Positions 128 to 43,072 are shown, counted from the stretch's first letter. The stretch: 52,290 nucleotides of DNA from a virus (IMGVR_UViG_3300037628_000403:1-52290), one strand, 5' to 3'. Notes: a model not told the origin generated them from the letters alone. Program-made: numbers and translations.

Positions 128-437
128 GCTTAGGGCAAGAACGCTGTACCCAGACAACAAGCACCTGACCGTTGCATTAATGGAAGAGGTTGGTGAACTC
201 GCCCAGGTACAACTGGACGACGATGGCAGGGATCGCGCCATCGAAGAAGCCAAACAAGTTGCATGCTTAGCAATTCGCATCATGGAAGAGGGTGACGCTG
301 ACTTCGCATTCCAAGGCCCAGATTCAGTCTGCCCTATGTGTTGCGCTGCCGACATCATCCAATCGCAGGCATTTTGTGTTAGTTGTGGAGCGAATTTGAC
401 AGTGGACCGTTATCCTGACGATGATATTCCATTCTGA
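78..437 (+). CDS. MazG-like NTP pyrophosphohydrolase with C-terminal Cys-rich tail
   Basis: ALMEEVGELAQ...EEAKQVACLAIR is a MazG-type acidic motif; ATG 78 overlaps the end of the upstream gene across the join. Confidence 0.75.
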   Translation: MADYPCDETMRAVYEEVLRARTLYPDNKHLTVALMEEVGELAQVQLDDDGRDRAIEEAKQVACLAIRIMEEGDADFAFQGPDSVCPMCCAADIIQSQAFCVSCGANLTVDRYPDDDIPF

Positions 438-541
438 TGCCTTGGGCTTATGGATATTGCGCTGACCCGCTGCGAACTATCAGAGCGGTTGGTCCAATTT
501 TAATGATACGAAACAACGTAGCAATTTGTAGAGGAGAGGCA

Positions 542-838
542 ATGGAGCCAGAGGATGAACCCAAACGATACGGCGTGGCTGATACCACCGACATTGCTGT
601 CGCCTTATACAGTGAAGCAAATCAAGAAAATTGTGATGGGCCTGAATACGATTTGATGCAGGCCGCAGCCCACTATATTCGCAAGTTGGAGAAACGCCCT
701 GAAACGGTTTGTTGTAAAGGGTGCCCGGATTGCGTGGGCATCGGTGTGCGCGAGCAGCTCAAAGGTGACATGCTCGAAATCAAGGAATTGAAAGAAGAGA
801 TTGAACGTCTCAAGGAGAAAGACAATGCAAGCAGCTAG
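542..838 (+). CDS. Hypothetical protein
   Basis: GAGGAG RBS before ATG 542; CCKGCPDC motif and coiled-coil C-terminus. Confidence 0.6.
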   Translation: MEPEDEPKRYGVADTTDIAVALYSEANQENCDGPEYDLMQAAAHYIRKLEKRPETVCCKGCPDCVGIGVREQLKGDMLEIKELKEEIERLKEKDNASS

Positions 839-8945: not shown

Positions 8946-9548
8946 ATGTCCGGGGCAAAGCAATGGATAAATACCATCAAAGAGATCGGTTGCGTCGTAA
9001 GATTCAGTCAAGCTCATCTTTCAAAAACAGAAAACGTGCTAGAGCACCTAGGCTTCACCGCTTTGATTGCTCTGCATATATCAGAACGCTTGCGCGATGA
9101 AGGCCACCAACTCGATCAGGCGATGATAGTCAAGGCCGCGTTGATTCACGATTTGGAAGAGTCTATGGTCGGTGACGTTTCTAGGCCAACGAAATATCAT
9201 AGCCAAGAAATGCGGCAATCATTTGCCGAATTGGAATCTGATATTGCTCTGGTTATTTTCAACAGAGCAGAGTGCCCAGGGTTCTATCACCATTGGGTAA
9301 ATGCAAAGGAAGGGCCTGAAGGCAAGATCATGAAGTTTGTTGACTTGCTCGCTGTGCTAACAAAAGTACACGACGAGTCTGTGCTGCGCGGGAACAAAAG
9401 CCTGATGGTAATTGTCCGCTCAGCATTGTACGATGGCGTCAATGTATCACTTAGTGATCTTTGGAGATTGTTCCCAGAGAGCAGGGTGATTGGAGAATAC
9501 TCGGATCATTGTGAAGAAATGATCAACGAATTGAAGGGGCTGAAATGA
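8946..9548 (+). CDS. HD-domain 5'-deoxynucleotidase/dNTPase (YfbR/DatZ-like fold)
   Basis: RF...ENVLEH, AALIHDLEESMVGDV..PTK, KFVD. Confidence 0.85.
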   Translation: MSGAKQWINTIKEIGCVVRFSQAHLSKTENVLEHLGFTALIALHISERLRDEGHQLDQAMIVKAALIHDLEESMVGDVSRPTKYHSQEMRQSFAELESDIALVIFNRAECPGFYHHWVNAKEGPEGKIMKFVDLLAVLTKVHDESVLRGNKSLMVIVRSALYDGVNVSLSDLWRLFPESRVIGEYSDHCEEMINELKGLK

Positions 9549-10642
9549 AATTGAAGTTGATGAACGTGCCGGATCTACATCAGAATTTACACGCTTGGAA
9601 TAACTCGCGTCCAAACGATACGCAAGTAAGTTTGGAAGAGGTTCTTGCTATAGACTTACCAACCAATGAATTCTGTACTCTGAATTTGTTCGTTGAGTCT
9701 ACTATACTGGAGCGTGAGATATTCGCGACAATGCGAAACCATATCATGTGGGCGCAGTCTTCCAGGATACACGATCCACTAAAGTTCGAGATAGATCCAA
9801 ACGCCCCAGAACATCTTGAGGCTTTCTACAAAGGTGTACGCACCTCGATGGAAACAAGAAGTGTTCACGAGAGGCAGGATGATTACCGTCTTGGACTTCC
9901 TTTGCTATCAATGACGAAGTACTCAGTCTCGATCTCATTGCGGATGCTCGTGAAGCTTGGGAACTACTTCGATCACCTCGCAGTCAACACAGAGTTGAAG
10001 GATATTTTTCAAGTAGCATCTGAAGAGATCTATCAAATGATCAAATACCTAGGGTTGGACATAAGCATCTTTCGCAAATACAAGCCCCACAAAATACTGA
10101 ACGAGCATTACATCAAAGTGGATGGAAGCCGCAGGTTTGGAAGTGCCGTTGTAGTTAGCGGGGCACTCCCATTCCACCTACGCGCTCAGCTTGTTCGCCA
10201 CCGTGGGATTAGCTTTGAGGACAACCTGTTCAATCTCTTACAAAGTCAGAAAGTCTTCACCTCTTCATTGAGGAAAGAACTGCACGTTACCATCATGGGA
10301 TCTACCGACAGCTTCAGAGAAATTCTCAGGCGTCGTACATGTTGGATTGCTAACTATCGTGTTTGGGGTGGGTTCCTCGCAAAGATCGAAGAGCAGATTG
10401 GCGAGGGAATTGACCTGCCCTGCACGGATGGAACTTGTCCCTATCCGACGGATGCAAAGATCAGGTATGAAGGCAAAGAGCCAAATCCACCTTGCCCGAT
10501 CTACTGTGATATGGAAAGGCTCCCAATCACCAGAGAGCAATTCAGAGCAATGGATCAGATGATTGACGCGGATCGGCGTCCAAAAAGATTTTGGGATAAC
10601 AAGATGAATCAACTAACGTTGATTGAAGGGGAAGAGTCATGA
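9545..10642 (+). CDS. thyX: Divergent tandem-domain ThyX-like flavoprotein
   Basis: N-half TMR-x7-SSR and DDYRLGLP; C-half RAQLVRHR and ILRRRTC..A; Cys-rich tail. Confidence 0.65.
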   Translation: MKLKLMNVPDLHQNLHAWNNSRPNDTQVSLEEVLAIDLPTNEFCTLNLFVESTILEREIFATMRNHIMWAQSSRIHDPLKFEIDPNAPEHLEAFYKGVRTSMETRSVHERQDDYRLGLPLLSMTKYSVSISLRMLVKLGNYFDHLAVNTELKDIFQVASEEIYQMIKYLGLDISIFRKYKPHKILNEHYIKVDGSRRFGSAVVVSGALPFHLRAQLVRHRGISFEDNLFNLLQSQKVFTSSLRKELHVTIMGSTDSFREILRRRTCWIANYRVWGGFLAKIEEQIGEGIDLPCTDGTCPYPTDAKIRYEGKEPNPPCPIYCDMERLPITREQFRAMDQMIDADRRPKRFWDNKMNQLTLIEGEES

Positions 10643-11064
10643 TAGTGAAGGTCTATATAGCAGCACCATTCTTCAACGAGCGCCAGCTTGCGATTGTATC
10701 GGAAGTTGAGAACTTTCTCACAAGCAAAGGGATTGACTTTTTCAGTCCACGATGCACCGGTACGCTGAAGGATATGTCGAAGGAAAGGCAACAGCAAACC
10801 AAGCGACAAATTTACGATACCAATATCAGAATGATGGATGCTTGTACCCACATGATTGCTTGCGTGGAAGAAAAAGACCAAGGTACCACGTTTGAGATTG
10901 GGTACTACGCTGCTAAGCAAAAGCCAATCGTGCTATTCTCTGAGAAGGTAGGCACGGTGAATGTAATGCTTGCCGAGGCTGCGATGTCTGTTTGTGATGG
11001 CCTTTACCTTTTGGACTCGGCTCTCATCGGTGACTACACAAGCCCACCCGCGAGTTTGACCTGA
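10639..11064 (+). CDS. Nucleoside 2-deoxyribosyltransferase / dNMP N-glycosidase family protein
   Basis: VYIAAPFF, FFSPR, DQGTTFEIGY (catalytic Glu), NVML. Confidence 0.85.
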   Translation: MIVKVYIAAPFFNERQLAIVSEVENFLTSKGIDFFSPRCTGTLKDMSKERQQQTKRQIYDTNIRMMDACTHMIACVEEKDQGTTFEIGYYAAKQKPIVLFSEKVGTVNVMLAEAAMSVCDGLYLLDSALIGDYTSPPASLT

Positions 11065-11354
11065 TGTCGGTCCAAGGAAATTTACGTGAGGCTGCCGAGC
11101 TATTTGAGAATCGCAACCCAGAGTACGGTGACGGCTGGAAGCGATCTCAAAAGCTCCTTGAAGCATTCTTCCCAAATGGAGTTGTGTTGAAAACTCCAGA
11201 GGACATGGCCCGCTTTGCTAACTTTAATATGCTGATCGTCAAGCTGGTCCGGTATGCGACCATGATGGAAGAGGGCGGCCACCTTGACTCCATTGAAGAC
11301 TTGATGGTGTACGCTGCGATGTTGAAGGAGAGGACGCATGGCTCTGTATCCTAA
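11064..11354 (+). CDS. All-alpha nucleotide-modification-associated protein (DUF6378/Nmad1-like)
   Basis: RNPEYGD...KLVRY...HLDSIEDLMVYAAML. Confidence 0.65.
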   Translation: MSVQGNLREAAELFENRNPEYGDGWKRSQKLLEAFFPNGVVLKTPEDMARFANFNMLIVKLVRYATMMEEGGHLDSIEDLMVYAAMLKERTHGSVS

Positions 11355-12177
11355 TGTTCGTCATACCAACTATACAGTTCCAAATTTCTACATTCTTGGA
11401 GCGGCAAAGTGCGGTACTACATCGCTAGCAAAATGGCTAGGCAGGCATCCAGACATCTGCATATCCAGGCCGAAAGAGCCACGCTACTTCACGATGGAAT
11501 ATCACAACGGTCCAGAATGGTATTCCAAAAACTACTTCCCTCATTATGATGGGGAGTATTACATGGGGGACGCTTCAGCGCTGAACCTAATGGTTCATTT
11601 TGTTACCAAGCGGATCAAGGAAACGTCGGGCAGCAACGCGAAGTTCATCGTGTTAGTACGCAACCCGATTCAAAGGGCATACTCTTTTTGGAGCAAGTAC
11701 TCCAGGATGAGGCCAGGCCGCGAAACTGGAACATTTGATGAAGTGATATTGGAAAACTTCAGGCTGCTTGATGATAATATATTTGAGACTGAAGAAGAGT
11801 TCATGGTTACGGCTGATGCCAAGGGTGGAAGTTATCGCCCAACGTACATCGAGCATGGAATGTACGCGACACATATCAAAAGATTTCAGGCCGAGTTTGG
11901 TTTGGAGTCGGTAGGTGTTTGGACGCTCGATCAGTTGTCTGAAAATCCAAAGCTGACGATGAATGAAGTATACAAATTCCTTGGTGTTAAAAACTGGTGT
12001 TTGGATATGAGCCTTGAAGAAGAGAATTGGTCAAGTGCTAAGCGAACAACGGAGTTGCCTTTGGATACAATGCATACAACAACGTATAACGATCTGCAAA
12101 GATTCTATCAGCCAGGGGTGGAAGAGCTAAGCAATATGTTTGGAATCAACTTCTTAGAGCAGTGGGGATTTAAATGA
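11338..12177 (+). CDS. PAPS-dependent sulfotransferase
   Basis: 5'-PSB loop PNFYILGAAKCGTTSL, HP..KEPRYF, 3'-PB motif LVRNPIQRAYS. Confidence 0.9.
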   Translation: MALYPNVRHTNYTVPNFYILGAAKCGTTSLAKWLGRHPDICISRPKEPRYFTMEYHNGPEWYSKNYFPHYDGEYYMGDASALNLMVHFVTKRIKETSGSNAKFIVLVRNPIQRAYSFWSKYSRMRPGRETGTFDEVILENFRLLDDNIFETEEEFMVTADAKGGSYRPTYIEHGMYATHIKRFQAEFGLESVGVWTLDQLSENPKLTMNEVYKFLGVKNWCLDMSLEEENWSSAKRTTELPLDTMHTTTYNDLQRFYQPGVEELSNMFGINFLEQWGFK

Positions 12178-12713
12178 TATTCTGGGATACTGAAACTACA
12201 GGGCTGCTACGGCCGCAAGCGGTTGACGTAGGCTTACAACCTTTCATTACAGAATTGTATTGTGTAAAGGTAGATGCCGAATTCAATTTCATTGACGAGA
12301 TAGATACATTCTTGAAGCCGCCGGTCCCAATAACTGAAGAGATCACAAAGATCACAGGCATCGACGATGCGATGGTTCGGAACGCGCCAAGCTTCATCCA
12401 GATATATGATAAGCTTTGTGACTTCTTTTTGGGCGAGCGGATTCTGATAGCGCACAATAATTCGTTCGACACTTGGGTGCTGAAGGGTGAGCTTGAAAGG
12501 CACGAATTGGAATTCCAATTCCCATATCCTTGCCGCCAAATCTGCACGGTTGAGGCTAGCTTTCCGATTGAGAATAAACGCTTAACACTCGGCAAGCTCC
12601 ACGAGATAGCAACGGGCAGGCCACTCGAAACTTCGCATCGAGCAAAGGACGATACTTTTGCTCTGATACGCTGCGCTCAATGGCTTTGGGAAAAGGGGTT
12701 GATAAATGATTAA
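12174..12713 (+). CDS. dnaQ: DEDDh 3'-5' exonuclease (DnaQ/epsilon-like)
   Basis: DTETTG, AHNNSFD, HRAKDD. Confidence 0.9.
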   Translation: MIFWDTETTGLLRPQAVDVGLQPFITELYCVKVDAEFNFIDEIDTFLKPPVPITEEITKITGIDDAMVRNAPSFIQIYDKLCDFFLGERILIAHNNSFDTWVLKGELERHELEFQFPYPCRQICTVEASFPIENKRLTLGKLHEIATGRPLETSHRAKDDTFALIRCAQWLWEKGLIND

Positions 12714-15534
12714 CTTGGCCCTGAGGACTGAGTATAGCTTCAAGAACTGTTTCGGCCCAATCAAAGCAATTGCCGAAGGGCAATCGGTAGTTGGCATTGC
12801 CGACGTTAACAACACGTTTGGGCATGTTGCTTTCGAGCAGATCTGTATTAAGGCATTTGCAAAGCCAGTCTTTGGTGTTCGTCTAATGGTAGTTGACGGA
12901 GACCTTGATGAAAAAATCAAAAGACATGGTCCAGTCTACATTTTCCTGGCCAAGAATGACGATGGCCTTTCAGAAATAAATGACTTGGTAAAGCAAGCTT
13001 ATGATAATTTCTACTATCATCCGAGGATCAACAAAACGATTCTCAAAAGGGTAAGTGAAAATGTATTTGTAATCACCGACAACTTCACGAGTCCTGATCG
13101 AGTTGATTACATCGCGCTAACTACCACTACTCCAAAAGCAGTGGCTGAATGGGATCTCCCAAAGGTAGCAATAAATTTTAACTTCTATCCAACAGCCGCA
13201 GACAGGGAAGTTTATCAGTTGCTTGCCGGCAGTCGTAATGGAAAGCCGATGTTTGAAAACCAGACATACCCTCAGTATATTTTGGGGGATGATGAGTGGT
13301 CGCGGCTTTGGCCTGATAATCCAGAGGCGCTGGATAACACCAAGAAGATTGCCGATGCTTGTAACGCCAGTTTGAAAAAGTCTGGGATGATTAAATACAA
13401 CGGCAAAATAAATTTGAAGAGCCTGTGTAGAATGGGAGCAAGACGACGCGGCATTGATTTAGAAGGCACGGTGTACGGTGATCGGTTGGATAGTGAGCTG
13501 AAGCTGATTGAGGAAAAGGAATACACCGATTACTTTCTCATCGTGGCTGAAATGGTTCGCGATGCCAAGAAGAAAATGTTTGTTGGGCCATCGCGTGGGT
13601 CTTCCGCTGGATCGCTGGTTTGCTATTTGATAAACATTACTGAAGTTGATCCTATCGAATTCGGTTTGCTCTTTGAGCGGTTCATTGATATCAACCGGCA
13701 CGACCTTCCAGACATTGACGTTGACTTTCCAGATACAAAAAGAAAGTTAGTCATCAAAGACTTAGCAAAGAAACACGGCAAAGATAACGTAGCGCACATC
13801 GCGACAATCTCCAGGCTGAAACCAAAATCGGCAATCGGAGAATTCGCAATGGAGCTTGGTATACCTGCCTATGAAACTGACGCAGTCAAAGACGCGATCA
13901 TCGAAAGGTCTGGTGGTGATGCTCGTGCTGCTATGTGCGTGGCGGATACATTTGAAACTACTGAAGTTGGGAAAGCGTTTATTCAGCAATACCCAGCGAT
14001 GAAATTAGTTTCTAGAATTGAAAGCCACGCGAGACATGCTGGAGTTCACGCGGCTGGTATCCTTGTAAGCAACGATCCAATTACAAAATACGTCGGAGTG
14101 AATACCCGCGACAATGTCGCGATGATGGATGGTAAGGATGCCGAGTACATTAATCTTTTGAAGATCGATGTGCTTGGATTGAGAACGCTTGCTATTCTTG
14201 AAGAGGTGGCCGACATGATTGGGATGAGCTATTCTGATTACTACAAGTTGCCGCTTGACGATAAGAAAACGCTCGACATCTTCAACGACATGCGGCTGTC
14301 TGGGATATTCCAATTCCAAGGGTACGCTCTTCAATCTACAACAAGGGAAATGGGAGTCCATGATTTCAACGACATCGTAGTCATCACTGCGCTTGCTCGA
14401 CCTGGCCCGCTACACTCAGGCGGTACACAATTATATATTAGCAGAAAGATTGGCGAGACGCCGGTGGAATATCTCAGTGATGATCCGGCAGTAGTCAGGA
14501 ATACAAAAGAGACTCTTGGGATTATCATCTACCAAGAACAGCTAATGATGATTGGAAAAGATTACGGTGGATTGTCCTGGAAGGATGTTAGTGCGTTGCG
14601 ACGCGCCGCCTCAAAAAGTCTTGGTGAAGAATTCTTCGGGAAATACAAAGACGCATTCCTGAAAGGCACAAGGTCAAGAGGAATCAAAGATGAAGAGGCA
14701 GTTTCAGTTTGGGAGAACATGGTTACGTTTGGATCTTGGGGTTTCAATAAATCCCATGCTGTATCCTACGCAATGATTTCGTACTGGACTGCTTGGGCCA
14801 AAGCCAACCATCCGTTGGAATTCGCCGTTGCTAATATGAACCATGCGAAAAGTGAAGGTGACGCGGTCAAGTTGCTAAGGGATATGGTTGAGAACGATGG
14901 CATCGAGTATACTGCGTTTGACCCTGACGAGTCAGTTGCAAAGTGGACGGTCAAAGATGGGAAGATGCTTGGCGGATTATTAAGCATACCTGGAATTGGC
15001 CCAAAGAAGGCAGCCGACATTATCAAGAGAAGAAACGGGGCAAAGAATTTCACGCCATCGATGGTAGAGAAACTCATGAACCCCAATACAGTTTTTGAAA
15101 TCCTGTTTCCTTGTAGGCATTTTTGGGGCGACATTTACGAGAATCCAAAACGACACGGGCTTAACAAAGCGCCTGTGATGTTGAGGGATATAACTGAGCC
15201 TGGTACTTACGTCTTCATCGGACGCTTGGTTGATAGGAACCTTCGTGATTTGAACGAGTATCAGTCAGTCGTGAAACGTGGCGGAACAATCATCACGGAT
15301 CATACTTTGTTTCTCAACCTGACTGTTGAGGATGATACTGACTCTATCATCTGTACGATTGATAGGTACAAGTATCAAGAGATAGGAAGAGTGATTGCTG
15401 AAACTGGGAAGATAGACAAAGACTGGTATTTAATCAAGGGCAAGATTCGCGACAAGTGGCGACGAATCAGTGTTCAAGAAATTATGAAACTGGAGGTTGG
15501 AAAACATGGATGTAGACCCGACAACACTGTATAG
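12706..15534 (+). CDS. dnaE: Family C DNA polymerase (Pol III alpha)
   Basis: Degenerate PHP domain, RGSSAGSLV, PDIDVDF, KIDVLGL, GFNKSHA, C-terminal OB fold. Confidence 0.95.
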   Translation: MINLALRTEYSFKNCFGPIKAIAEGQSVVGIADVNNTFGHVAFEQICIKAFAKPVFGVRLMVVDGDLDEKIKRHGPVYIFLAKNDDGLSEINDLVKQAYDNFYYHPRINKTILKRVSENVFVITDNFTSPDRVDYIALTTTTPKAVAEWDLPKVAINFNFYPTAADREVYQLLAGSRNGKPMFENQTYPQYILGDDEWSRLWPDNPEALDNTKKIADACNASLKKSGMIKYNGKINLKSLCRMGARRRGIDLEGTVYGDRLDSELKLIEEKEYTDYFLIVAEMVRDAKKKMFVGPSRGSSAGSLVCYLINITEVDPIEFGLLFERFIDINRHDLPDIDVDFPDTKRKLVIKDLAKKHGKDNVAHIATISRLKPKSAIGEFAMELGIPAYETDAVKDAIIERSGGDARAAMCVADTFETTEVGKAFIQQYPAMKLVSRIESHARHAGVHAAGILVSNDPITKYVGVNTRDNVAMMDGKDAEYINLLKIDVLGLRTLAILEEVADMIGMSYSDYYKLPLDDKKTLDIFNDMRLSGIFQFQGYALQSTTREMGVHDFNDIVVITALARPGPLHSGGTQLYISRKIGETPVEYLSDDPAVVRNTKETLGIIIYQEQLMMIGKDYGGLSWKDVSALRRAASKSLGEEFFGKYKDAFLKGTRSRGIKDEEAVSVWENMVTFGSWGFNKSHAVSYAMISYWTAWAKANHPLEFAVANMNHAKSEGDAVKLLRDMVENDGIEYTAFDPDESVAKWTVKDGKMLGGLLSIPGIGPKKAADIIKRRNGAKNFTPSMVEKLMNPNTVFEILFPCRHFWGDIYENPKRHGLNKAPVMLRDITEPGTYVFIGRLVDRNLRDLNEYQSVVKRGGTIITDHTLFLNLTVEDDTDSIICTIDRYKYQEIGRVIAETGKIDKDWYLIKGKIRDKWRRISVQEIMKLEVGKHGCRPDNTV

Positions 15535-34511: not shown

Positions 34512-35294
34512 TTATCCTTGGAAGCGCATTTCTCTGTTGAAATATGGGTACTGGGCCATGATGTGTTTGACGACGTCATCTGGTAATTTGCGCTTTGGTC
34601 TAACTTCCACCTTTCCAGTGGCATCGTCGTGCGGGAACTTGTTGTGATACAAGGGATCAATATCAGTCGCAGTTGACTGCACATTATCAAAATCGTAAGT
34701 GAATGTAGCAAGCTTGGCACCAAGCCCAATGTGTTGGAGCGTCTTGTCCGGATGCTTACACAGATTATCATAATCAACAAACAAGACGTTCTCTGCAGCT
34801 CTACGCTTCAAATCTTCAACAGCCAGAATCGACGCTCCGATGATCCCCTTGTTGCTGATCATGGTTGAAGCGCGTTCAGCCATCGTTCCAGGCATTGGTT
34901 GAAGCTCTGCCGTTTCTTCATCCCTGGCCTCAATGCTGGCAAATACATCAGCGGGGTTGCGATACACGCATACAATCAAACTTTCTGGATACAACCTGCG
35001 TAATAGCGCTGCCTGTGTAGACCATCCGCGCCCTTTATCAAAGACGCATCCTTTGTTCTGATTTTTATACCAGCCTTCAATCGTGCCGCGTTCTGCATCG
35101 ATGATCCTGTTGTTATTGCCGTTGATCACTTCGCTTGTTATTTCTGGCTGAGTTGCCATGCCTTGGGCCAGCGCGGACACCATTTCGCAAACCGGGCTGG
35201 TGCTGGATGCGTGAACGTCTGGATGCTGATTGAGTATATTACAGAGGAGCGTGCTGCCCGATCTTGGCATTCCTGTTACAACATTAAGTTTCAT
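34512..35294 (-). CDS. Sulfotransferase-family protein (structural module)
   Basis: GMPRSGSTLLCNILNQHP, DKGRGW, RNPADVFAS, VDYDNL...P. Confidence 0.9.
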   Translation of the reverse strand: MKLNVVTGMPRSGSTLLCNILNQHPDVHASSTSPVCEMVSALAQGMATQPEITSEVINGNNNRIIDAERGTIEGWYKNQNKGCVFDKGRGWSTQAALLRRLYPESLIVCVYRNPADVFASIEARDEETAELQPMPGTMAERASTMISNKGIIGASILAVEDLKRRAAENVLFVDYDNLCKHPDKTLQHIGLGAKLATFTYDFDNVQSTATDIDPLYHNKFPHDDATGKVEVRPKRKLPDDVVKHIMAQYPYFNREMRFQG

Positions 35295-38191: not shown

Positions 38192-39337
38192 CTAGAACTC
38201 ACGCAGGTTAACGATGCGGCGTGCATCGTAAGCCTTCGCACCCAACAGACAATCGATGGACAGCACCTCTTTCTTGAGCTGAATATCGTATGCCTGGACC
38301 AGTCGCAGGCTGAATCCATTGCTGGATACAACCGAACTGATGGCGTTGGATGGTTTGTCGAGCAAGGGCATCGCGAGTGCGATTGCGTTGCTGTCGAGGA
38401 TTGACCCAACGTAATTGCCAGCAGCACCACCGGAACCGATGGTTGTGATTGCAGCACCGTCAGGAATGATCTGATCGATGGGCTCGGTGAGCAGAATGCT
38501 CGTGCCGGTCGCGGCCAACTGAGTGGACACAACCAACGGACGACGAACACCGGCAACCACGATACGGTCACCAGGCTCGAACTGGCCTGTGCTGGAATCC
38601 GTGGTCAGCACCGACAGACCAATCAGGTTGGTCGTTCCGGTGTTGTTCGTAACACCGACACCGCTGCCAGGGGTGTGAGCATCCACCGGCAGTTGGAGGC
38701 TGGCATAGAAGTTCATGCCCATGGCACGCCCCAGCTTGGCTTCCTGGAATACCGTTTGGCCTTCCTCGCCACGTGCGTTGTACTGATTGAAGTACGTCGC
38801 ACCAAGCAACTCGGCTTCCAGCGTGTCGTTCACCAAACAGAATCGACCTTGAACGTCGAGTTGCTGGTTGTTGGCAGCCTTGCGGGACAATGCCATGTCT
38901 GCAGCGGTCGCATACATGTCATCGGACCGATACAACCCAGTGCCTTCCAGCACTTTGGTACCGACATGCTCGTCGATTTCCACTGCCAGTCGATACAAGG
39001 CAGGCTTGAGGACTTCATCGGAGAATCCGTCAAAGTTCAATGCCAATTCCTTCGCATTGAGTTCAATCGACACGTCCAAGTGTCGCTCAATGGTGAAGTC
39101 ACGCTGCGAAGCGCGGATGTCTTGGATCGTGATTGGCGTGCCAGGCGTGAAGTCATTCACGGTGAAATCGCCGTACTGCTTGATGCGTACGGTATCACCA
39201 ACGGCATAGCCATTCGGCTTCGTGTTGAAGTCCGAGGTTTTGTCCCGAGAGACGAGGTTGGAAAGCACCAACGCATCTTCCATATGCGATAGTGATTCTG
39301 CTGCGATCATGTCGATGTTGTGCCAGGTATTAGCCAT
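38192..39337 (-). CDS. Major capsid protein (P22 coat-like)
   Basis: MANT..., GDTVRI, LKPALYRLA..ID, SIDCLLGAK; AGGAGG RBS. Confidence 0.9.
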   Translation of the reverse strand: MANTWHNIDMIAAESLSHMEDALVLSNLVSRDKTSDFNTKPNGYAVGDTVRIKQYGDFTVNDFTPGTPITIQDIRASQRDFTIERHLDVSIELNAKELALNFDGFSDEVLKPALYRLAVEIDEHVGTKVLEGTGLYRSDDMYATAADMALSRKAANNQQLDVQGRFCLVNDTLEAELLGATYFNQYNARGEEGQTVFQEAKLGRAMGMNFYASLQLPVDAHTPGSGVGVTNNTGTTNLIGLSVLTTDSSTGQFEPGDRIVVAGVRRPLVVSTQLAATGTSILLTEPIDQIIPDGAAITTIGSGGAAGNYVGSILDSNAIALAMPLLDKPSNAISSVVSSNGFSLRLVQAYDIQLKKEVLSIDCLLGAKAYDARRIVNLREF

Positions 39338-39587
39338 TGAGATGGCCTCCTATTACTAAAAGTTCATTCCTCATCCAAAATAGATGAGGACAAAACCTAG
39401 ATCGGGCCACCCGATTTTGATTGTCCAAGATTTACTCAACCAGCCACTGGCGATTACAGCAACCGGCCACCGGTCCACTATAATCAGAGTTTTTCTTGCT
39501 ACATGCTATTTTTGAATCGAGCGCAGAGCCGATAACGGCAATGGGTTGGAGACAGCCACATGGCTGCCTCCACGTCTCGACTCCACG

Positions 39588-40397
39588 CTACTTCTTTGCT
39601 TTCCTTTCATTCTTTTCTTTCTTCAACTTCCGATACAAAGTTTGGTTGCCTTCGGATGCTGCTTTTTCCATTTGCGCTTCAATGTCGCTTCCGCCTCCAC
39701 CGCCGCCACCTTCAGCACCGGCACCGACTGAGTCTGGCCAGTAGTGCGGGTACTTGGTTTGCAATTCCTTGATCATATCACCAGGAGTGAAGAGCCCACC
39801 AGCCTCGTTCTTGCGTAGAGTTTTGTCGGCATTGCGTGCTTCCAAAATTCCATCGGCATCAACGCCGAACACTTCACGAATGCGGCGCTTAATGTCGTCC
39901 ATCGCCTCTGGGCGCGGTTTTGCTTCCAGGGCGACTGCTGCCGAATCAGTCGCATCATCAATTGCCTTTCCCACGGCGGTTTGTCGCAAACCGTCACGCT
40001 CTGTAGTAGCAGTACCAAGTTGAGTGGTCAAATCGGCGATTGTAGTCTCAAAGCCCAACCGCATTTTCTCGGTGTGCTTTGTGAGAACCTCGTCAAGCTT
40101 ACCAGCCTTCAGAAGTGTAGCAGTCTCGTCTTCACTTGCTGCGGCGATCATTGCCCGGTACTCGGCAGCATCTACACCGTCAAATGCCTTCAGCTTGTCG
40201 GCCAGTGCTTGCTTCTCGCCAATCAAAGCATCGGTGTTCGTTTTCAAACCGGCAGTCGTAGCATCGACAGCGGTCTGAATCGCAGCAAGTACCAATGGAT
40301 CTTTGAGATCAATGGCAGGTGGATTTCCACCGCCACCACCGCCACCTGGTGGATCTTTCTCTTCAAACAATTCCCCACGCACAAATCTATTGAACAT
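39588..40397 (-). CDS. Capsid scaffolding protein
   Basis: Coiled coil; GLK.N.D.L..EK and GAGAEGGGGGG; precedes the capsid gene. Confidence 0.8.
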   Translation of the reverse strand: MFNRFVRGELFEEKDPPGGGGGGGNPPAIDLKDPLVLAAIQTAVDATTAGLKTNTDALIGEKQALADKLKAFDGVDAAEYRAMIAAASEDETATLLKAGKLDEVLTKHTEKMRLGFETTIADLTTQLGTATTERDGLRQTAVGKAIDDATDSAAVALEAKPRPEAMDDIKRRIREVFGVDADGILEARNADKTLRKNEAGGLFTPGDMIKELQTKYPHYWPDSVGAGAEGGGGGGGSDIEAQMEKAASEGNQTLYRKLKKEKNERKAKK

Positions 40398-40608
40398 TTT
40401 CTTCTCCCATTGTCTCAAAAATTTCAGGCTCGTCTGATTCCAGATCCTCTATCTGAACATCAGTGGTTTTCTTCATATCAAACCGTCCCAAACTCTCTCC
40501 GCTCATTACTCGCTGAGTCTGCTTAGCACCCAACAAATCCTCCAAAAAATCTTTGCCTTTCTGACCGCACTTGGCTTGTCTCGCCAAGAAATCATCGTAT
40601 GCCGTCAC
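40387..40608 (-). CDS. Hypothetical; resembles a detached C-terminal part of gp7/MuF proteins
   Basis: TAYDDFLARQ...FLEDLLG; GTGA overlap with the gp7 stop codon. Confidence 0.55.
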   Translation of the reverse strand: MTAYDDFLARQAKCGQKGKDFLEDLLGAKQTQRVMSGESLGRFDMKKTTDVQIEDLESDEPEIFETMGEENVQ

Positions 40609-41402
40609 GCCGCTGCCGCTATCATAATGGAAGTGCTACGGCAGCCCCAGTGGATTTCACCTGGGCCTTCTTCCCAAGCAAAATCGTGACCAATCGGCTC
40701 ATGGTCCACAGTGTATTTCTGTCCGGCACGATCAAGACAAATATCAGTAGTAGCATTGTCCAAAACTGCATCCCAAATCAAATACGCAATGTTCTTGCCG
40801 TTCAATTTCTGAATCGCGTTGCTCGAAGTAGCAGATGCGTGATTCAACCCACCGCGTGTTAACGCTTGGGCGTTTGCTTTTGCTAACTTGAAAGTAGTCC
40901 TCTCCAATTGGGTCATGATCTCGGCCATTGACTGTCCATCACGCAATCCGCGCTTAATGGCAATCGTAACACGCTTCGAGTGATCCTTGGCCAACTTGCC
41001 CCACCAAGATGATATCGTGCGTCCATTATAGCTGGACCGTTTGAACACGTTCTTCAATTTGCTCAAAACCGGTGTCTTAATTTTCACTGCCTTGCCCAAT
41101 TGGACTCGCAACGCCTTAGCGTGCCAAGCAGCTTCCACTTCGATCAGCTTACCAGCGCGAACTGTTTGTTTTGCTAGCATAGCAGAGTATTCTTCAGCAT
41201 AGTGGCGCTGGACCATTTTGATAACGTGCCGTTCTTGCCGACTGCCAGAAGGGACTGTGCCGATGCGTCGCAGGCCAGCAGCAAGAGACCTATCGGCACC
41301 GCCGACAAGACTGCTGGCATTCCTAGCTTGGCTTTCGATATGGCGCAAAACGCGTGTTTGGCGTCGTGTATACATATCGGCAATTTGTTTACTGGTCGGC
41401 AT
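40605..41402 (-). CDS. Head morphogenesis protein (SPP1 gp7/MuF family)
   Basis: WDAVLDNATTDIC...HWGCRS. Confidence 0.85.
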   Translation of the reverse strand: MPTSKQIADMYTRRQTRVLRHIESQARNASSLVGGADRSLAAGLRRIGTVPSGSRQERHVIKMVQRHYAEEYSAMLAKQTVRAGKLIEVEAAWHAKALRVQLGKAVKIKTPVLSKLKNVFKRSSYNGRTISSWWGKLAKDHSKRVTIAIKRGLRDGQSMAEIMTQLERTTFKLAKANAQALTRGGLNHASATSSNAIQKLNGKNIAYLIWDAVLDNATTDICLDRAGQKYTVDHEPIGHDFAWEEGPGEIHWGCRSTSIMIAAAA

Positions 41403-41565
41403 CTTGTTTCCTAACAAGTCTCAAATTCGATATTGCATCAGCAATAAGTTCCGATGACAAATCAACAAGCTCGCGATCATCAAGATCATTGATCCGCTCA
41501 ACAATATCGCCAAGCTCGCCAAGACCTTCGATCTCAAATTTGATCTCAAGCTTATTCGTCGCCAT
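41389..41565 (-). CDS. Small acidic hypothetical protein (58 aa, absent from ORF track)
   Basis: MATNKLEIKFEIEGLGELGD...RKQDADQ fills the portal-gp7 gap and overlaps both neighbours. Confidence 0.6.
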   Translation of the reverse strand: MATNKLEIKFEIEGLGELGDIVERINDLDDRELVDLSSELIADAISNLRLVRKQDADQ

Positions 41566-43072
41566 CTATTGGGTTCCCATCCTCGTCCAACTCGACCTCT
41601 TCATCACCCTCGGCAGGAACAACCGTCTTCTCACCATCATCAATCAGCTTTGGCTCGTTGTTCTCATTCTCAAGCTCTTCAATGATTTCCTCTTCAGTCT
41701 TTTCCGAATCAGGCAACATCCCAGCACGACGCAAATTCCATCGGTACTCGGCAAACGTAATGCCGCTGTTCGTCCAACTATCCATCAGTGCTGCCAGGGC
41801 AGGCGCATCAAGCGATATATCAGAGAACTCTTTTGAGCCACTGAACGAAACATCATCTTCATTTGCGCTGGTCCAATCAGCGGCAATTTTAAGAGCAGAC
41901 GTGATTGCCTCTGAAGCTTGCTCGACCAATGAAGACAAGTTCGCACCGGATGCCGCTTGTCGTAATCGCAACGACTCGGCTGACTCGGCAACTTTCTTTG
42001 AAGAGCCAAGCAGGTTCGCACCATAATTGGCGGCCTCTTCAAAAAGTTTGTCGATGTGGGTCATTACATGTTGAAGCGCGCTGGTGTCCGTTTTTGTGTA
42101 GTCAACTTTTGACGCGACGTTACTGACACCGAGCACAACTTGCGAACCAACAACCTGTGGTACTTGGTCCTTCTCGACGCCTGTGATATAGAGCATCGGG
42201 TTACAAGACATGAATTCGCTGGCTGCTAAGTCAGCAGACCGCATGTAAATTTGAAGAGCGCAGTTTGCGATACCAGACATTGGGACAATGTCAGGATCAG
42301 GCGTGTTCTTCAAACTTCCAGCAATAACCATCGGGATGTAATCAAGGGTCTTGCCCTGAATTGATGGTTCAACAACATCGCCGGTTTGCTCACACTCGAC
42401 ATAAACAGCCGTTTCATACTTACCATCTTTAATACGAACAACGCGATGCTTCAACTCGTCAGTGTGATCGAATTCATCCTCAGCCAACATCTGCTCTGTA
42501 AGGACACCAAGGGACAATTTCTTTTTGTTATTTACAACTGTCTCTTTCCAGTTGATAAAGTCTTCAGCCAAATACACTGCTATATAAGGCTTATTCGTGG
42601 TAGGGTCCACGTCAACTAGCATAATGCATCGACCGGTCTGAATGATCTCGCTCAAGACGGTGCTATACAACTCCGTCAAAGACAATCCGTCATTGGTTGC
42701 CTCGTTCTCCATGTGCTCCAGGCTTGAAGGAAGATTGAACTCTGGCTCTTCATTCAACGCAATCCCAAGCAGGCCGCGCAACGTAGCAGCGACCATATCT
42801 GGAACGTGTGCGCGTTGAAGGTATGATCGGTAAGCTGGATTGGAGTGCCACCATGGCGCTGACTCAACACTGCTCGTGTATAGACCACCATCTAGTTGTT
42901 GATCACCCGTTATATCTGGCGCTGGAGTTTTCGCAGTGGCCATTGAAGACGGCATCGGCAAGTACGCGATGTTTGCGCGCTTGACAGACTTTACCCCATC
43001 AAGAAAATCACGTACCAGTCGCCATTCCCATAGTGATGCTGTATATAGAGGGTGAGTTGATTCAACCGTCAT
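41552..43072 (-). CDS. Portal protein (DUF4055-type)
   Basis: Follows TerL; YLP, Y.SYLQRA, GRCIMLVD, ESAESLRLR. Confidence 0.9.
   Translation of the reverse strand: MTVESTHPLYTASLWEWRLVRDFLDGVKSVKRANIAYLPMPSSMATAKTPAPDITGDQQLDGGLYTSSVESAPWWHSNPAYRSYLQRAHVPDMVAATLRGLLGIALNEEPEFNLPSSLEHMENEATNDGLSLTELYSTVLSEIIQTGRCIMLVDVDPTTNKPYIAVYLAEDFINWKETVVNNKKKLSLGVLTEQMLAEDEFDHTDELKHRVVRIKDGKYETAVYVECEQTGDVVEPSIQGKTLDYIPMVIAGSLKNTPDPDIVPMSGIANCALQIYMRSADLAASEFMSCNPMLYITGVEKDQVPQVVGSQVVLGVSNVASKVDYTKTDTSALQHVMTHIDKLFEEAANYGANLLGSSKKVAESAESLRLRQAASGANLSSLVEQASEAITSALKIAADWTSANEDDVSFSGSKEFSDISLDAPALAALMDSWTNSGITFAEYRWNLRRAGMLPDSEKTEEEIIEELENENNEPKLIDDGEKTVVPAEGDEEVELDEDGNPIDGDE

What the first reader, a model, noticed from the sequence alone, without database searches (positions are those of the whole stretch)
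8946..15534. Candidate undescribed DNA base-modification pathway: HD nucleotidase, ThyX-like, NDT-like, all-alpha protein, sulfotransferase, DnaQ, DnaE
Seen: seven genes with overlapping stops and starts behind one promoter, plus a MazG-like gene at 78-437. Known: phages that replace a base typically combine three things. These are enzymes that destroy the canonical nucleotide (HD DatZ and MazZ in Z-genomes; NDT-fold MilB and DNPH1 are nucleotide N-glycosidases), a synthase-family enzyme that makes the new nucleotide, and their own polymerase. Here purZ, ThyA-type hydroxymethylase, queuosine/dpdA, TET/JBP and glycosyltransferase genes are not evident. A divergent ThyX and a PAPS-type sulfotransferase sit in their place. 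Inference: the ThyX-like flavoenzyme makes a C5-modified pyrimidine nucleotide, the hydrolases purge the competing one, and the product is sulfated before or after replication. I know of no characterised sulfated DNA base in phages.
Basis: partly seen in the sequence, partly recalled or inferred. Interest (0 to 1): 0.85.

Follow-up and report, generated by a model that had tools for sequence, protein, structure and literature searches.

The report
Phage tandem-ThyX base-modification module
A marine-sediment phage carries a widely conserved but uncharacterised gene set, built around an unusual double ThyX-like enzyme, that probably makes an altered thymine-type DNA building block; the sulfotransferase beside it is an optional extra whose target is unknown.

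Summary
The seven overlapping genes exist as described: HD, ThyX-like, NDT, DUF6378, sulfotransferase, DnaQ, DnaE. The single promoter and the "MazG-like" gene are not confirmed.

HD-ThyX-like-NDT-DUF6378-DnaQ-DnaE recurs in 80 IMG/VR loci: NDT 80/80, HD 76/80. No ThyA or separate canonical ThyX was found in 51 records.

Among 50,697 phage records only six carry a homolog: YerA41, GN1, phiXF1, SP-15 (two records) and Carin-5. Three of these phages have C5-pentyl-type hypermodified thymidine. All four lineages also carry NDT.

The sulfotransferase has intact PAPS motifs but occurs in only 1/80 related loci. Its clade (7 of 127 leaves, support 0.95) sits before DnaQ-DnaE, mostly in phages with canonical ThyX and no NDT.

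Best reading: an SP-15-type pre-replicative dU-C5 modification core, with a decoupled accessory sulfotransferase. A sulfated base is unsupported but not excluded.

The parts
8946..9548 (+). HD-domain phosphohydrolase, YfbR-like 5'-deoxynucleotidase / DatZ-like
   Evidence: PF12917 E 1.9e-17 (64 bits, cut-off 25.9) and PF13023. phrog_7076 'dATP triphosphohydrolase' E 1.7e-15, with weaker hits to T5-type dNMP phosphatase PHROGs. PDB 3mzo E 4.5e-8 and YfbR 2paq E 3e-5. Found in 76 of 80 related loci.
9545..10642 (+). Tandem ThyX-like protein (365 aa): full ThyX fold (1-183), degenerate second ThyX-like repeat (about 186-292), Cys-rich C-terminal extension
10639..11064 (+). Nucleoside 2-deoxyribosyltransferase-family protein (NDT)
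   Evidence: PF05014 E 3.7e-21 (75.9 bits, cut-off 28.8). PDB 6evs E 4.1e-9 and 1s2d E 1.1e-4, with the catalytic-Glu block D-x-G-T-x-x-E-x-G aligned. E86 is invariant in 31 module NDTs. Present in 80 of 80 loci. It is the next gene after ThyX-like in 62 of 80 ORF calls, median gap -3 nt.
11064..11354 (+). DUF6378 small helical protein
   Evidence: PF19905 E 0.0029, below cut-off. phrog_4889 E 4.8e-14. Atlas features 0.96 to viral DUF6378 clusters, and structural match TM 0.75 to the C-terminus of 338-aa HAD_PNKP proteins. Found in 67 of 80 loci. It is the gene directly upstream of DnaQ in 40 of 56 cases.
11338..12177 (+). PAPS-type sulfotransferase (heparan-sulfate N-/3-O-sulfotransferase-like); lineage-specific accessory
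   Evidence: PF00685 E 4.7e-15 (56.1 bits, cut-off 22). PDB 3rnl E 7.8e-20, and NDST/3-OST E 1e-11 to 1e-12. K24, K46-E47, R108, P110 and R113 are invariant in 23 homologs. Found in 1 of 80 related loci and 1 of 50 records. It falls in a 7-leaf phage clade, support 0.95.
12174..12713 (+). DnaQ-like 3'-5' exonuclease
   Evidence: PF00929 E 1.7e-22. phrog_192 E 1.8e-33. Found in 67 of 80 loci.
12706..15534 (+). DnaE-type DNA polymerase III alpha
   Evidence: PF07733 E 2.2e-65, PF17657 and PF02811. phrog_405 E 6.3e-226. Found in 60 of 80 loci, many of which are cut by contig ends.
15497..16597 (+). ATP-dependent DNA ligase, co-linear with the cluster
   Evidence: PF01068 E 2e-19. phrog_114 E 2.6e-59. 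Found in 14 of 80 loci. It also follows DnaE in the sulfotransferase-bearing phages L081, L093 and L094.

Best explanation
The conserved core is HD phosphohydrolase, tandem ThyX-like flavoenzyme, NDT-family enzyme and DUF6378, placed beside the phage's own DnaQ-DnaE replicase. I read it as a pre-replicative pathway that makes a non-methyl, C5-substituted deoxyuridine nucleotide. It would be of the same kind as the still unsolved pathway of Bacillus phage SP-15, which makes 5-(4',5'-dihydroxypentyl)uracil.

Proposed working, all inferred:
- The tandem ThyX-like protein binds a pyrimidine dNMP in a composite site. The N-half keeps the equivalents of ThyX R80, S88, R90 and R147, and the C-half supplies an R-H-R triad.
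- It uses reduced flavin to install a carbon substituent at C5.
- The HD enzyme and the NDT-family enzyme act on the competing or precursor nucleotide: dNMP/dNTP to nucleoside, then cleavage or exchange at the glycosidic bond.
- The phage replicase incorporates the product.

Variable genes inside the module would tailor the substituent in different lineages. These are SDR, HAD phosphatase, O-methyltransferases and an aminotransferase.

The sulfotransferase at 11338-12177 is a genuine PAPS-type enzyme, but it is not part of this core. It belongs to a phage clade tied to the DnaQ-DnaE module whatever the ThyX type, and its acceptor is unknown.

Shown: folds, motifs, gene order, phyletic pattern, and the link to T-hypermodified isolates. 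Inferred: substrate, cofactor, product and incorporation.
For: (1) Conserved unit. Of 80 IMG/VR loci holding a ThyX-like relative, NDT is in 80, HD in 76, DUF6378 in 67, DnaQ in 67 and DnaE in 60. ThyX-like is followed directly by NDT in 62 of 80 ORF calls, with a gap of 20 nt or less in 60 of those 62.

(2) The enzyme has a ThyX fold but is far from canonical. There is no Pfam hit. It has a tandem architecture. Thirty-four columns are invariant, including four Cys. The family is large: 562, 353 and 200 representatives at E<=1e-3, 1e-10 and 1e-30 among 1.84 billion proteins.

(3) Link to hypermodified phages. Only 6 of 50,697 phage records hold a homolog: YerA41, vB_Yru_GN1, phiXF1, SP-15 (two records) and Carin-5. 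YerA41, SP-15 and Carin-5 have C5-linker hypermodified thymidine (passages of PMC9023294, PMC5977210, PMC12686479, PMC13697223). SP-15 also has a separate canonical ThyX (gp9). Its gp130 was proposed not to be the dTMP synthase (PMC5977210, passage).

(4) NDT (PF05014) is present in all four of those isolate lineages and absent from VA-RY-3. In SP-15 the order is NDT gp127, SDR gp129, ThyX-like gp130. In phiXF1 the NDT is the next gene.

(5) DHPU is reported to be made before DNA synthesis (PMC5977210 passage). A 1978 title in that paper's reference list reports label from ribose entering DHPU; I saw the title only.

(6) Group-transfer or redox enzymes are embedded in the module in other lineages. 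These are SDR (15 loci in-module, 23 within the fetched loci), HAD_PNKP (12), a class I/II aminotransferase (L001), TylF O-methyltransferase (L063), FkbM methyltransferase (L040) and Methyltransf_11 (L035/L050).

(7) The sulfotransferase is decoupled from the core.
Against: - No experiment bears on this family; every functional step is inferred.
- None of 51 records has a ThyA or a separate canonical ThyX. The ordinary thymidylate-synthase role is therefore vacant, and the ThyX-like protein could simply fill it.
- Identity to the SP-15 and Carin-5 proteins is only 22-23%, and about 30% to YerA41 and phiXF1. The RHR triad and the Cys cluster are not kept in SP-15 and Carin-5.
- The other phages with SP15-like polymerases named in PMC12686479 (RP13, phiLo, LiS04 and others) gave no tblastn hit.
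- These phages lack the usual dUMP-supply genes. dCMP deaminase is in 0 of 27 records and dUTPase in 1 of 27. No GT1 or GT2 glycosyltransferase is in the window.
- The genomes were assembled from ordinary metagenomes, so any modification does not block standard sequencing.
- The best solved relatives of the NDT are true nucleoside transferases. No dNMP glycosidase (DNPH1/MilB type) appeared at E<=0.01.
- The residue correspondences with ThyX rest on a structure match plus an hhalign alignment that is not significant in itself (probability 0.33%).
- The SDRs of SP-15 and Carin-5 do not match the module SDR by blastp at E<=1e-3.
Confidence: 0.5

Rival explanations
1. Ordinary thymidylate supply plus deoxynucleoside salvage. 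On this reading the tandem ThyX-like protein is just this lineage's very divergent dTMP synthase. HD (a T5 Dmp/YfbR-type 5'-deoxynucleotidase) and NDT recycle host-DNA breakdown products by dephosphorylation and base exchange. The DNA is canonical. The sulfotransferase and the other embedded enzymes are unrelated auxiliary genes.
For: - No other thymidylate synthase was found: ThyA in 0 of 51 records. PF02511 gave matches in 22 of 51 records, one place each, all weak (2 over the family's cut-off) and in open frames of 311-650 aa. The one I checked by coordinates (G004/L008) is the ThyX-like gene itself.
- The equivalents of the ThyX nucleotide-binding Arg/Ser residues are retained.
- HD matches YfbR and the T5-type dNMP phosphatase PHROGs.
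- The NDT's closest solved relatives are salvage transferases.
- There are no glycosyltransferase, dCMP deaminase or dUTPase genes.
- The genomes assemble from standard metagenomes.
Against: - Phages that need only dTMP commonly carry canonical ThyX; VA-RY-3, L093 and L094 do so beside the same type of DnaE. This family has instead lost Pfam-level similarity, fused two copies and gained a conserved Cys-rich tail.
- Its only isolate relatives include three phages with hypermodified T. SP-15 keeps a canonical ThyX as well.
- NDT linkage in 80 of 80 loci and 4 of 4 isolate lineages is not expected for a plain synthase.
Confidence: 0.3
2. The ThyX-like product, or the base once it is in DNA, carries a hydroxyl that the sulfotransferase O-sulfates. 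This phage would then have a sulfated DNA base.
For: - The sulfotransferase has intact PAPS motifs and a catalytic Lys-Glu pair.
- It is translationally coupled inside the module.
- Its solved relatives sulfate sugar hydroxyls or amines, which would suit a polyol side chain.
- The same region of the module holds O-methyltransferases and other tailoring enzymes in other lineages.
- L008 has the same enzyme directly after NDT.
Against: - It is present in 1 of 80 related loci and 1 of 50 records.
- Four of the six clade members with known context (VA-RY-3, L093, L094, L095) are in phages with canonical ThyX and no NDT or ThyX-like. That includes one record that is 100% complete.
- A second sulfotransferase lies among the structural genes. 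The phage comes from marine sediment, and the bacterial homologs with names come from marine-type phyla. Sulfation here therefore need not concern DNA.
- My searches of the held papers found no report linking a sulfotransferase to phage DNA modification: none of the 15 papers listed contains the word 'sulfotransferase'.
Confidence: 0.1
3. The sulfotransferase activates a 5-hydroxymethyl-type group as a leaving group. This would be a sulfate analogue of the 5-hmdU DNA kinase step in ViI/M6-type pathways, preparing the base for a later substitution rather than giving a final sulfated base.
For: - The logic follows the kinase-then-substitution pathways described in PMC8989533 (passages).
- The enzyme follows a ThyX-type gene in all six known contexts.
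Against: - No aGPT-Pplase-like transferase or other substituting enzyme has been identified next to it. I did not search for that family.
- A canonical ThyX is not known to make 5-hmdUMP.
- No data exist on any of these phages' DNA.
Confidence: 0.05

Closest known systems
Bacillus phage SP-15 genes 127-129-130 (NDT, FabG-like SDR, ThyX-like 'thymidylate synthetase') and its base 5-(4',5'-dihydroxypentyl)uracil; homologs in YerA41 (gp081) and Carin-5 (gene 049)
   Same: - A homologous ThyX-like protein: tblastn E 1e-7 to 4e-37 over 85-98% of the query.
- An NDT-family gene in the same genome or next door.
- An SDR nearby in many module variants.
- The modification is made at the nucleotide level before replication, according to a passage of PMC5977210.
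   Different: - Those are 145-222 kb myoviruses with UDG-fused PolA polymerases and glycosyltransferase clusters (PMC13697223 and PMC12686479, passages). This is a 52-kb phage with DnaQ/DnaE and no GT1 or GT2.
- The SP-15 and Carin-5 proteins lack the C-half RHR and most of the Cys cluster.
- The biochemical role of gp130 is itself only a hypothesis.
Canonical flavin-dependent thymidylate synthase ThyX (T. maritima TM0449, PBCV-1 A674R) and the UMP/dUMP C5-methylase PolB
   Same: - Equivalents of ThyX R80, S88, R90 and R147 in the N-half and an R-H-R triad in the C-half. This comes from reading together.
   Different: - No Pfam Thy1 hit, and the profile finds no PDB sequence at E<=10.
- A single chain with two ThyX-like repeats, in place of a homotetramer of about 220-aa subunits.
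- The signature motif is split between the halves.
- A conserved C-terminal extension of about 70 aa with Cys residues is added.
Thymidylate-synthase-family enzyme paired with an NDT-fold N-glycosidase (MilA/MilB of mildiomycin; DNPH1) - recalled, not from a call
   Same: A C5-modifying pyrimidine-nucleotide enzyme is genetically coupled to an NDT-fold enzyme.
   Different: - MilA is ThyA-type, not ThyX-type.
- The NDT here is closer in sequence to true nucleoside transferases.
- MilA/MilB make a free base for an antibiotic, not a DNA precursor.
5-hmdU-derived thymidine hypermodification (ThyA-type dUMP hydroxymethylase, 5-hmdU DNA kinase, aGPT-Pplase; PMC5889632 listing, PMC8989533 passages)
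   Same: The overall logic: a synthase-family enzyme acts on the nucleotide pool, followed by lineage-specific tailoring enzymes.
   Different: - No ThyA-family gene in 51 records.
- No P-loop DNA kinase was identified.
- The carbon-installing enzyme is ThyX-type.
Z-genome cluster (PurZ, DatZ, MazZ, DpoZ) - recalled
   Same: An HD phosphohydrolase (best PHROG 'dATP triphosphohydrolase') and a small helical protein sit beside the synthase and the phage's own polymerase.
   Different: PurZ is absent. The synthase is pyrimidine-type.
PAPS-dependent carbohydrate sulfotransferases (PDB 3rnl; heparan sulfate NDST and 3-OST)
   Same: The PAPS 5'- and 3'-phosphate binding motifs and the Lys-Glu catalytic pair.
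   Different: It is encoded directly upstream of a phage proofreading exonuclease, in a phage-only clade. The acceptor is unknown.

Membership tests
ThyX / flavin-dependent thymidylate synthase (Pfam Thy1, PF02511) | ThyX three-dimensional fold | tested here: met
   [not shown]
ThyX / flavin-dependent thymidylate synthase (Pfam Thy1, PF02511) | Sequence match to the family profile above the curated cut-off | tested here: not met
   The window protein has no PF02511 hit at E<=0.1 or at E<=10 in the genome search. Among 51 related records, 22 have weak hits on these genes and only 2 reach the cut-off.
ThyX / flavin-dependent thymidylate synthase (Pfam Thy1, PF02511) | Contiguous ThyX signature R-H-R-x7-S-x-R in one subunit of about 220-250 aa | tested here: not met
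   The N-half reads T-M-R...S-S-R. The C-half has R218-H219-R220 without the Ser/Arg (compared with the T. maritima sequence printed). The chain is 365 aa with two repeats.
ThyX / flavin-dependent thymidylate synthase (Pfam Thy1, PF02511) | FAD-dependent, methylene-tetrahydrofolate-dependent conversion of dUMP to dTMP | not testable with these tools
   Needs an enzyme assay or thyA complementation.
SP-15 gp130-type ThyX-like proteins of T-hypermodified phages | Detectable homology over most of the length | tested here: met
   tblastn results: phiXF1 E 1e-42, YerA41 4e-37, Carin-5 2e-8, SP-15 1e-7, covering 85-98% of the query.
SP-15 gp130-type ThyX-like proteins of T-hypermodified phages | NDT-family gene in the same genome | tested here: met
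   Window. 80 of 80 loci. 4 of 4 isolate lineages.
SP-15 gp130-type ThyX-like proteins of T-hypermodified phages | Hypermodified thymidine in virion DNA | not testable with these tools
   The window is a metagenomic genome. The only runs found are kept as contigs.
SP-15 gp130-type ThyX-like proteins of T-hypermodified phages | Sugar-modification / glycosyltransferase gene block | tested here: not met
   No PF00535 or PF00534 match in the complete genome. Other glycosyltransferase families were not searched.
PAPS-dependent sulfotransferase (PF00685) | Profile match above cut-off | tested here: met
   56.1 bits against a cut-off of 22. PDB 3rnl E 7.8e-20.
PAPS-dependent sulfotransferase (PF00685) | 5'-phosphosulfate loop (K-x-G-T-T/S), 3'-phosphate motif (R-x-P-x-x-R-x-x-S) and catalytic base. 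The motif definitions are recalled; the residues come from calls. | tested here: met
   The sequence has G-A-A-K-C-G-T-T-S, R-N-P-I-Q-R-A-Y-S and K46-E47. These align to the same blocks of 3rnl, NDST and 3-OST. K24, K46, E47, R108, P110 and R113 are invariant in 23 homologs.
PAPS-dependent sulfotransferase (PF00685) | Sulfotransfer activity and identity of the acceptor | not testable with these tools
   Needs an assay with PAPS and candidate acceptors.
Nucleoside 2-deoxyribosyltransferase family (PF05014) | Profile match and catalytic Glu | tested here: met
   75.9 bits against a cut-off of 28.8. The Glu block aligns with 6evs and 1s2d. E86 is invariant in 31 sequences.
Nucleoside 2-deoxyribosyltransferase family (PF05014) | Transferase on nucleosides, as opposed to hydrolase on dNMPs (DNPH1/MilB type) | tested here: inconclusive
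   Only transferase structures appear at E<=0.01. Sequence cannot settle the activity.
Z-genome (PurZ/DatZ/MazZ) system | PurZ (adenylosuccinate-synthetase homolog) | tested here: not met
   No PF00709 match in the complete genome. The control rang in 14 of 14 genomes.
5-hmdU-type thymidine hypermodification | ThyA-family dUMP hydroxymethylase | tested here: not met
   PF00303 in 0 of 51 records. The control rang in 10 of 14 genomes.
5-hmdU-type thymidine hypermodification | 5-hmdU DNA kinase and aGPT-Pplase transferase | not tested
   No family search was run for these.

The most novel reading that the evidence does not exclude
The tandem ThyX-like enzyme is not a one-carbon transferase. It would use reduced flavin to couple the open-chain aldehyde of a pentose to C5 of dUMP through an N5-iminium. 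The pentose would be 2-deoxyribose or its 5-phosphate. The translationally coupled NDT-family enzyme would release it from nucleosides that the HD nucleotidase produces.

The product would be a 5-(polyhydroxypentyl)-dUMP. That is the missing first step of SP-15-type dihydroxypentyluracil biosynthesis, and it would destroy the competing nucleotide while recycling its sugar as the side chain.

Lineage-specific enzymes would then tailor the polyol: SDR, phosphatase, O-methyltransferases and an aminotransferase. In this phage the carbohydrate-type sulfotransferase would O-sulfate it, giving the first sulfated DNA base.

This is consistent with several observations:
- a 1978 title reporting ribose label entering DHPU (title seen in the reference list of PMC5977210);
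- the side-chain phosphate reported for SP-15, YerA41 and Carin-5 (PMC12686479, passage);
- ThyX activating formaldehyde through a flavin carbinolamine (titles of PDB entries 7ndw and 7ndz).

No step has been tested.
Probability: 0.08. Interest if true: 0.95.

Novelty: new variant of a known kind. Interest (0 to 1): 0.7.

Why it matters
How SP-15 makes dihydroxypentyluracil has been open since the 1970s. The papers I could search still offer only gene-level guesses.

This work shows three things. The SP-15 gp130-type ThyX-like protein belongs to a large viral family of at least 200 clusters at 50% identity. The family is always accompanied by an NDT-family gene, in 80 of 80 loci and 4 of 4 isolate lineages. 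In many small phages the pair is packed into a four-gene, translationally coupled cassette next to the replicase.

That gives a compact, clonable gene set for testing the chemistry. If the reading holds, SP-15-type thymidine replacement is not a curiosity of a few jumbo phages. It would be common in marine DnaE phages of about 40-80 kb. That matters for restriction and CRISPR evasion, for sequencing bias in viromes, and as a source of enzymes that make and polymerise modified dNTPs.

Separately, a phage-only sulfotransferase clade sits immediately upstream of DnaQ-DnaE. My searches of the held papers turned up no description of it, it has no obvious role, and it can be tested in an isolated phage (Vibrio phage VA-RY-3).

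Tried and rejected
- DNA similarity to known phages found only short DnaE segments in 15 records, none covering 80% of the query or more. No named close relative exists.
- Sequence and profile searches of the ThyX-like protein against PDB gave nothing at E<=10. Only fold comparison worked.
- I tested whether the 222-aa gene next to the canonical ThyX of VA-RY-3 is a split-off C-half. It is not (hhalign probability 0.49%). It looks like a HAD-like domain plus a DUF3310 / nucleotide-kinase-associated domain.
- I tested whether presence of an SDR tracks the 88-Da versus 104-Da linker. YerA41 also has three SDR genes, so there is no contrast. The SP-15 and Carin-5 SDRs do not match the module SDR by blastp.
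- A search for canonical ThyX relatives of VA-RY-3 in viral contigs found none.
- A motif scan of 185,579 prokaryote genomes for ThyX-like relatives found none. It used two motifs only, so it is weak evidence for 'virus-only'.
- Sequencing runs: 4 marine-sediment runs hold the stretch or part of it, all kept as contigs, and no RNA holder is listed. I did not lay reads, because contigs cannot show base modification.
- Complex prediction on ThyX-like with NDT gave no verdict (score 0.29, mark 0.32, collected). It counts neither for nor against binding.
- The Tet_JBP search is uninformative because its control rang nowhere.
- Papers PMC353962 and PMC353984 (Walker and Mandel 1978) are not held. 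I know only their titles, from reference lists.
- Supplementary files were not opened. Supplementary tables of PMC5977210 and PMC12686479 may hold annotations of SP-15 gp127/gp129 and of Carin-5 genes that bear on the comparison.
- About 44 of my 76 ORF calls in the window were scanned against Pfam or PHROGs. The remainder are mostly under 100 aa.

Full report
WHAT IS THERE

The window is a complete 52,290-bp viral genome with direct terminal repeats. It recurs in marine-sediment metagenome runs.

Their stop/start overlaps are 4, 4, 1, 17, 4 and 8 nt. An ATP-dependent DNA ligase follows in the same way.

Pfam and PHROGs confirm most identities:
- HD/YfbR-like phosphohydrolase: PF12917 E 1.9e-17. 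The best PHROG is 'dATP triphosphohydrolase'.
- NDT-family protein: PF05014 E 3.7e-21.
- Sulfotransferase: PF00685 E 4.7e-15.
- DnaQ-like exonuclease and DnaE.
- The small 'all-alpha' protein is DUF6378. The Pfam hit is sub-threshold, phrog_4889 gives E 4.8e-14, and Atlas gives 0.96.

Two side claims are not confirmed. No sigma-70-like site lies in the 140-nt gap before 8946, and promoter-like sites are not enriched. The 'MazG-like' gene at 78-437 has only sub-threshold leads.

PurZ, ThyA, TGT and GT1/GT2 glycosyltransferase families are absent from the genome.

THE THYX-LIKE PROTEIN

It has no Pfam hit, and no PDB hit by sequence or profile. A 35-sequence alignment gave a confident model: pLDDT 93.6, pTM 0.88.

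The two halves are not detectably similar in sequence, so the tandem reading rests on the fold searches.

I compared the family alignment with the T. maritima sequence printed. The hhalign alignment gives the same register but is not significant. On this reading:
- The N-half keeps the equivalents of ThyX R80, S88/G89, R90 and R147. In the window protein these are R64, S72/S73, R74 and R115.
- The N-half lacks R78 and H79.
- The C-half supplies an R218-H219-R220 triad after a matching strand-helix element.

It suggests a composite pyrimidine-nucleotide site, but that is inference.

Four Cys (C266, C293, C298, C317) are invariant in the close family and in phiXF1. They are lost in YerA41 and mostly lost in SP-15. 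That points to a structural metal site more than to a catalytic cluster.

CONSERVATION

A scan of IMG/VR found 90 relatives, of which 80 loci were kept.

tblastn with the window's proteins finds NDT in 80 of 80 loci, HD in 76, DUF6378 in 67, DnaQ in 67, DnaE in 60 and ligase in 14. Many loci are cut by contig ends. The sulfotransferase is found in 1 locus, L008.

In my ORF calls the gene after ThyX-like is NDT in 62 of 80 cases. The median gap is -3 nt.

The family has 562, 353 and 200 representatives at E<=1e-3, 1e-10 and 1e-30 in a library of 1.84 billion cluster representatives. A two-motif scan found none in 185,579 prokaryotic genomes.

Searches of whole records (51, or 27 where stated) gave:
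- ThyA in 0 of 51.
- PF02511 matches in 22 of 51 records, one place each, all weak and in open frames of 311-650 aa. I checked coordinates only for G004/L008, where the match is the ThyX-like gene.
- dCMP deaminase in 0 of 27 and dUTPase in 1 of 27.

THE LINK TO KNOWN HYPERMODIFIED PHAGES

Of 50,697 deposited phage records, only six hold a homolog: YerA41, vB_Yru_GN1, phiXF1, SP-15 (two records of one phage) and Carin-5.

From passages of the papers:
- SP-15 replaces about half of T by 5-(4',5'-dihydroxypentyl)uracil carrying glucose and phosphoglucuronolactone. The base is made before DNA synthesis. The authors proposed gp9 as the true thymidylate synthase and gp130, my hit, as a hydroxymethyl-dUMP synthase 'with no homologs' (PMC5977210).
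- YerA41 has a roughly 1-kDa substitution on thymidine (PMC9023294).
- Carin-5 has an SP-15-like linker with phosphate and sugars (PMC12686479).
- The 2026 polymerase paper groups these phages as T-hypermodified and says all have 'a thymidylate synthase homolog' (PMC13697223).

The YerA41 protein listed as that homolog in Table 1 of PMC12686479 (QSM00782.1) is the gene my search hit.

NDT (PF05014) is present in all four isolate lineages and absent from VA-RY-3. It is the next gene in phiXF1. In SP-15 it lies two genes upstream of the ThyX-like gene, with an SDR directly before that gene.

My searches of the held papers found no description of this ThyX-like/NDT/HD module or of DHPU biosynthetic enzymes. 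phiXF1's DNA has not been examined in the one paper I found.

Results against this link:
- Identities are low, 22-31%.
- The other SP15-like-polymerase phages gave no hit.
- The SP-15 and Carin-5 SDRs do not match the module SDR by blastp.

VARIABLE GENES INSIDE THE MODULE

I counted non-core + strand ORFs of at least 100 aa lying between core genes. They fall into 42 clusters across 75 loci.

I scanned representatives of 38 of the 42 clusters. Those with a family assignment are:
- SDR / FabG-like (15 loci).
- HAD_PNKP phosphatase (12 loci).
- A phrog_624 'DNA binding protein' (20 loci).
- The sulfotransferase (2 loci).
- One class I/II aminotransferase.
- One TylF-type O-methyltransferase.
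- One FkbM-type methyltransferase.
- Methyltransf_11 (1 of these loci; the cluster occurs in L035 and L050).
- One dATP/dGTP pyrophosphohydrolase.
- HNH, HTH and DUF6551 proteins.

Most of the rest had no hit.

The gene directly upstream of DnaQ is DUF6378 in 40 of 56 cases. Otherwise it is a methyltransferase (3 cases), the sulfotransferase (1), an SDR (1), c14 (1), other or unknown (4), or there is a gap (6).

Several of these are hydroxyl- or keto-tailoring enzyme classes. That fits a hydroxylated side chain being decorated differently in different lineages, but it does not prove it.

THE SULFOTRANSFERASE

It is a bona fide PAPS-type enzyme by sequence:
- PF00685 scores above the cut-off.
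- 3rnl gives E 7.8e-20, and heparan-sulfate NDST and 3-OST give E 1e-11 to 1e-12.
- The phosphosulfate loop, the 3'-phosphate motif and a Lys-Glu pair are conserved. K24, K46, E47, R108, P110 and R113 are invariant in 23 homologs.

It is not a conserved member of the ThyX-like module. It occurs in 1 of 80 loci and 1 of 50 whole records, and in 0 of 10 near-complete records.

Of eight viral loci found with relatives, L093, L094 and L095 place it directly upstream of DnaQ-DnaE. So does the isolate Vibrio phage VA-RY-3, found separately in the phage collection. L097 is cut at the contig end within the gene. In L093, L094, L097 and VA-RY-3 it lies downstream of a canonical ThyX and a HAD-like/DUF3310 gene. 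In L095 the canonical ThyX lies downstream of DnaE.

Those records have neither NDT nor ThyX-like: 0 of 5 records, one of them 100% complete. VA-RY-3 has no NDT.

I built a tree of 127 sequences. I dropped database homologs shorter than 240 aa and the truncated L097, and rooted the tree on the window's second sulfotransferase. The six DnaQ-linked enzymes plus P0041, whose context is unknown, form a clade of exactly 7 leaves with support 0.95.

The gene therefore belongs to a sub-lineage of DnaE replication modules and does not depend on the ThyX-like/NDT pair.

The phage also has a second, dissimilar sulfotransferase at 34512-35294 (- strand) among the structural genes. It scores PF13469 E 5.2e-16, confirming note e1-6325689.

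VERDICT

This is a conserved, undescribed, ThyX-based nucleotide module whose only characterised relatives are in T-hypermodified phages.

The sulfation step is not supported as part of that pathway.

I put 0.5 on a pre-replicative, non-methyl C5 modification of dU, with the sulfotransferase as a decoupled accessory. I put 0.3 on plain dTMP synthesis plus salvage, 0.1 on a sulfated base, and 0.05 on sulfate as an activating group.

The boldest reading still open has probability about 0.08. In it, the NDT-family enzyme supplies a deoxyribose-derived aldehyde that the ThyX-like flavoenzyme attaches to C5, giving the pentyl chain of SP-15-type bases, which this phage then sulfates.

All functional steps are inferred. 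The decisive tests are LC-MS of phiXF1 and VA-RY-3 DNA, thyA complementation, and in-vitro assays.

Noticed in passing
window 34512-35294 (- strand): A second, dissimilar sulfotransferase (PF13469 E 5.2e-16, PF00685 E 2.4e-11) lies among large structural or fibre-like genes that have no family hits. Two sulfotransferases in one 52-kb phage from marine sediment is unusual.
   Followed up: partly
L081 (Vibrio phage VA-RY-3), L093, L094, L095, L097: A phage-only sulfotransferase clade sits directly upstream of DnaQ-DnaE-ligase in phages with a canonical ThyX and a HAD-like/DUF3310 gene, and with no NDT or ThyX-like. VA-RY-3 is an isolate in which this could be tested.
   Followed up: partly
L064:9197-11101, protein P0249, and YerA41 gene 080 (L083:7220-7984): A DUF559 (Vsr-like endonuclease) domain is fused to the N-terminus of the ThyX-like protein in two metagenomic members (PF04480 E 1.1e-6). 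In YerA41 it is encoded by the gene immediately upstream. This may be a homing-type element associated with the gene.
   Followed up: no
L001:12628-13536, L063:7566-8306, L040:14476-15174, L035:6116-6634: In related phages the region between NDT and DnaQ/DnaE carries an aminotransferase, a TylF O-methyltransferase, an FkbM methyltransferase and a Methyltransf_11 protein. The window has the sulfotransferase in the corresponding place.
   Followed up: partly
window 11064-11354 and related loci: DUF6378 is structurally like the C-terminal part of 338-aa viral HAD_PNKP phosphatase proteins (Atlas TM 0.75). It sits next to a stand-alone HAD_PNKP gene in 12 loci. It is probably a partner domain of a phosphatase.
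   Followed up: no
window 437-838 (+): This ORF has a PinA peptidase-inhibitor-like segment (PF10465 E 1.4e-9). It lies at the start of an early block that also encodes an AAA_24 ATPase, DUF669 and a ResIII/DEAD helicase.
   Followed up: no
window 46707-48992 (-) and 38192-44382 (-): A primase-like gene (phrog_3022 E 2.1e-53), a major head protein, a portal and a large terminase were identified. Most large tail or fibre ORFs (524-748 aa) have no PHROG or Pfam hit.
   Followed up: no
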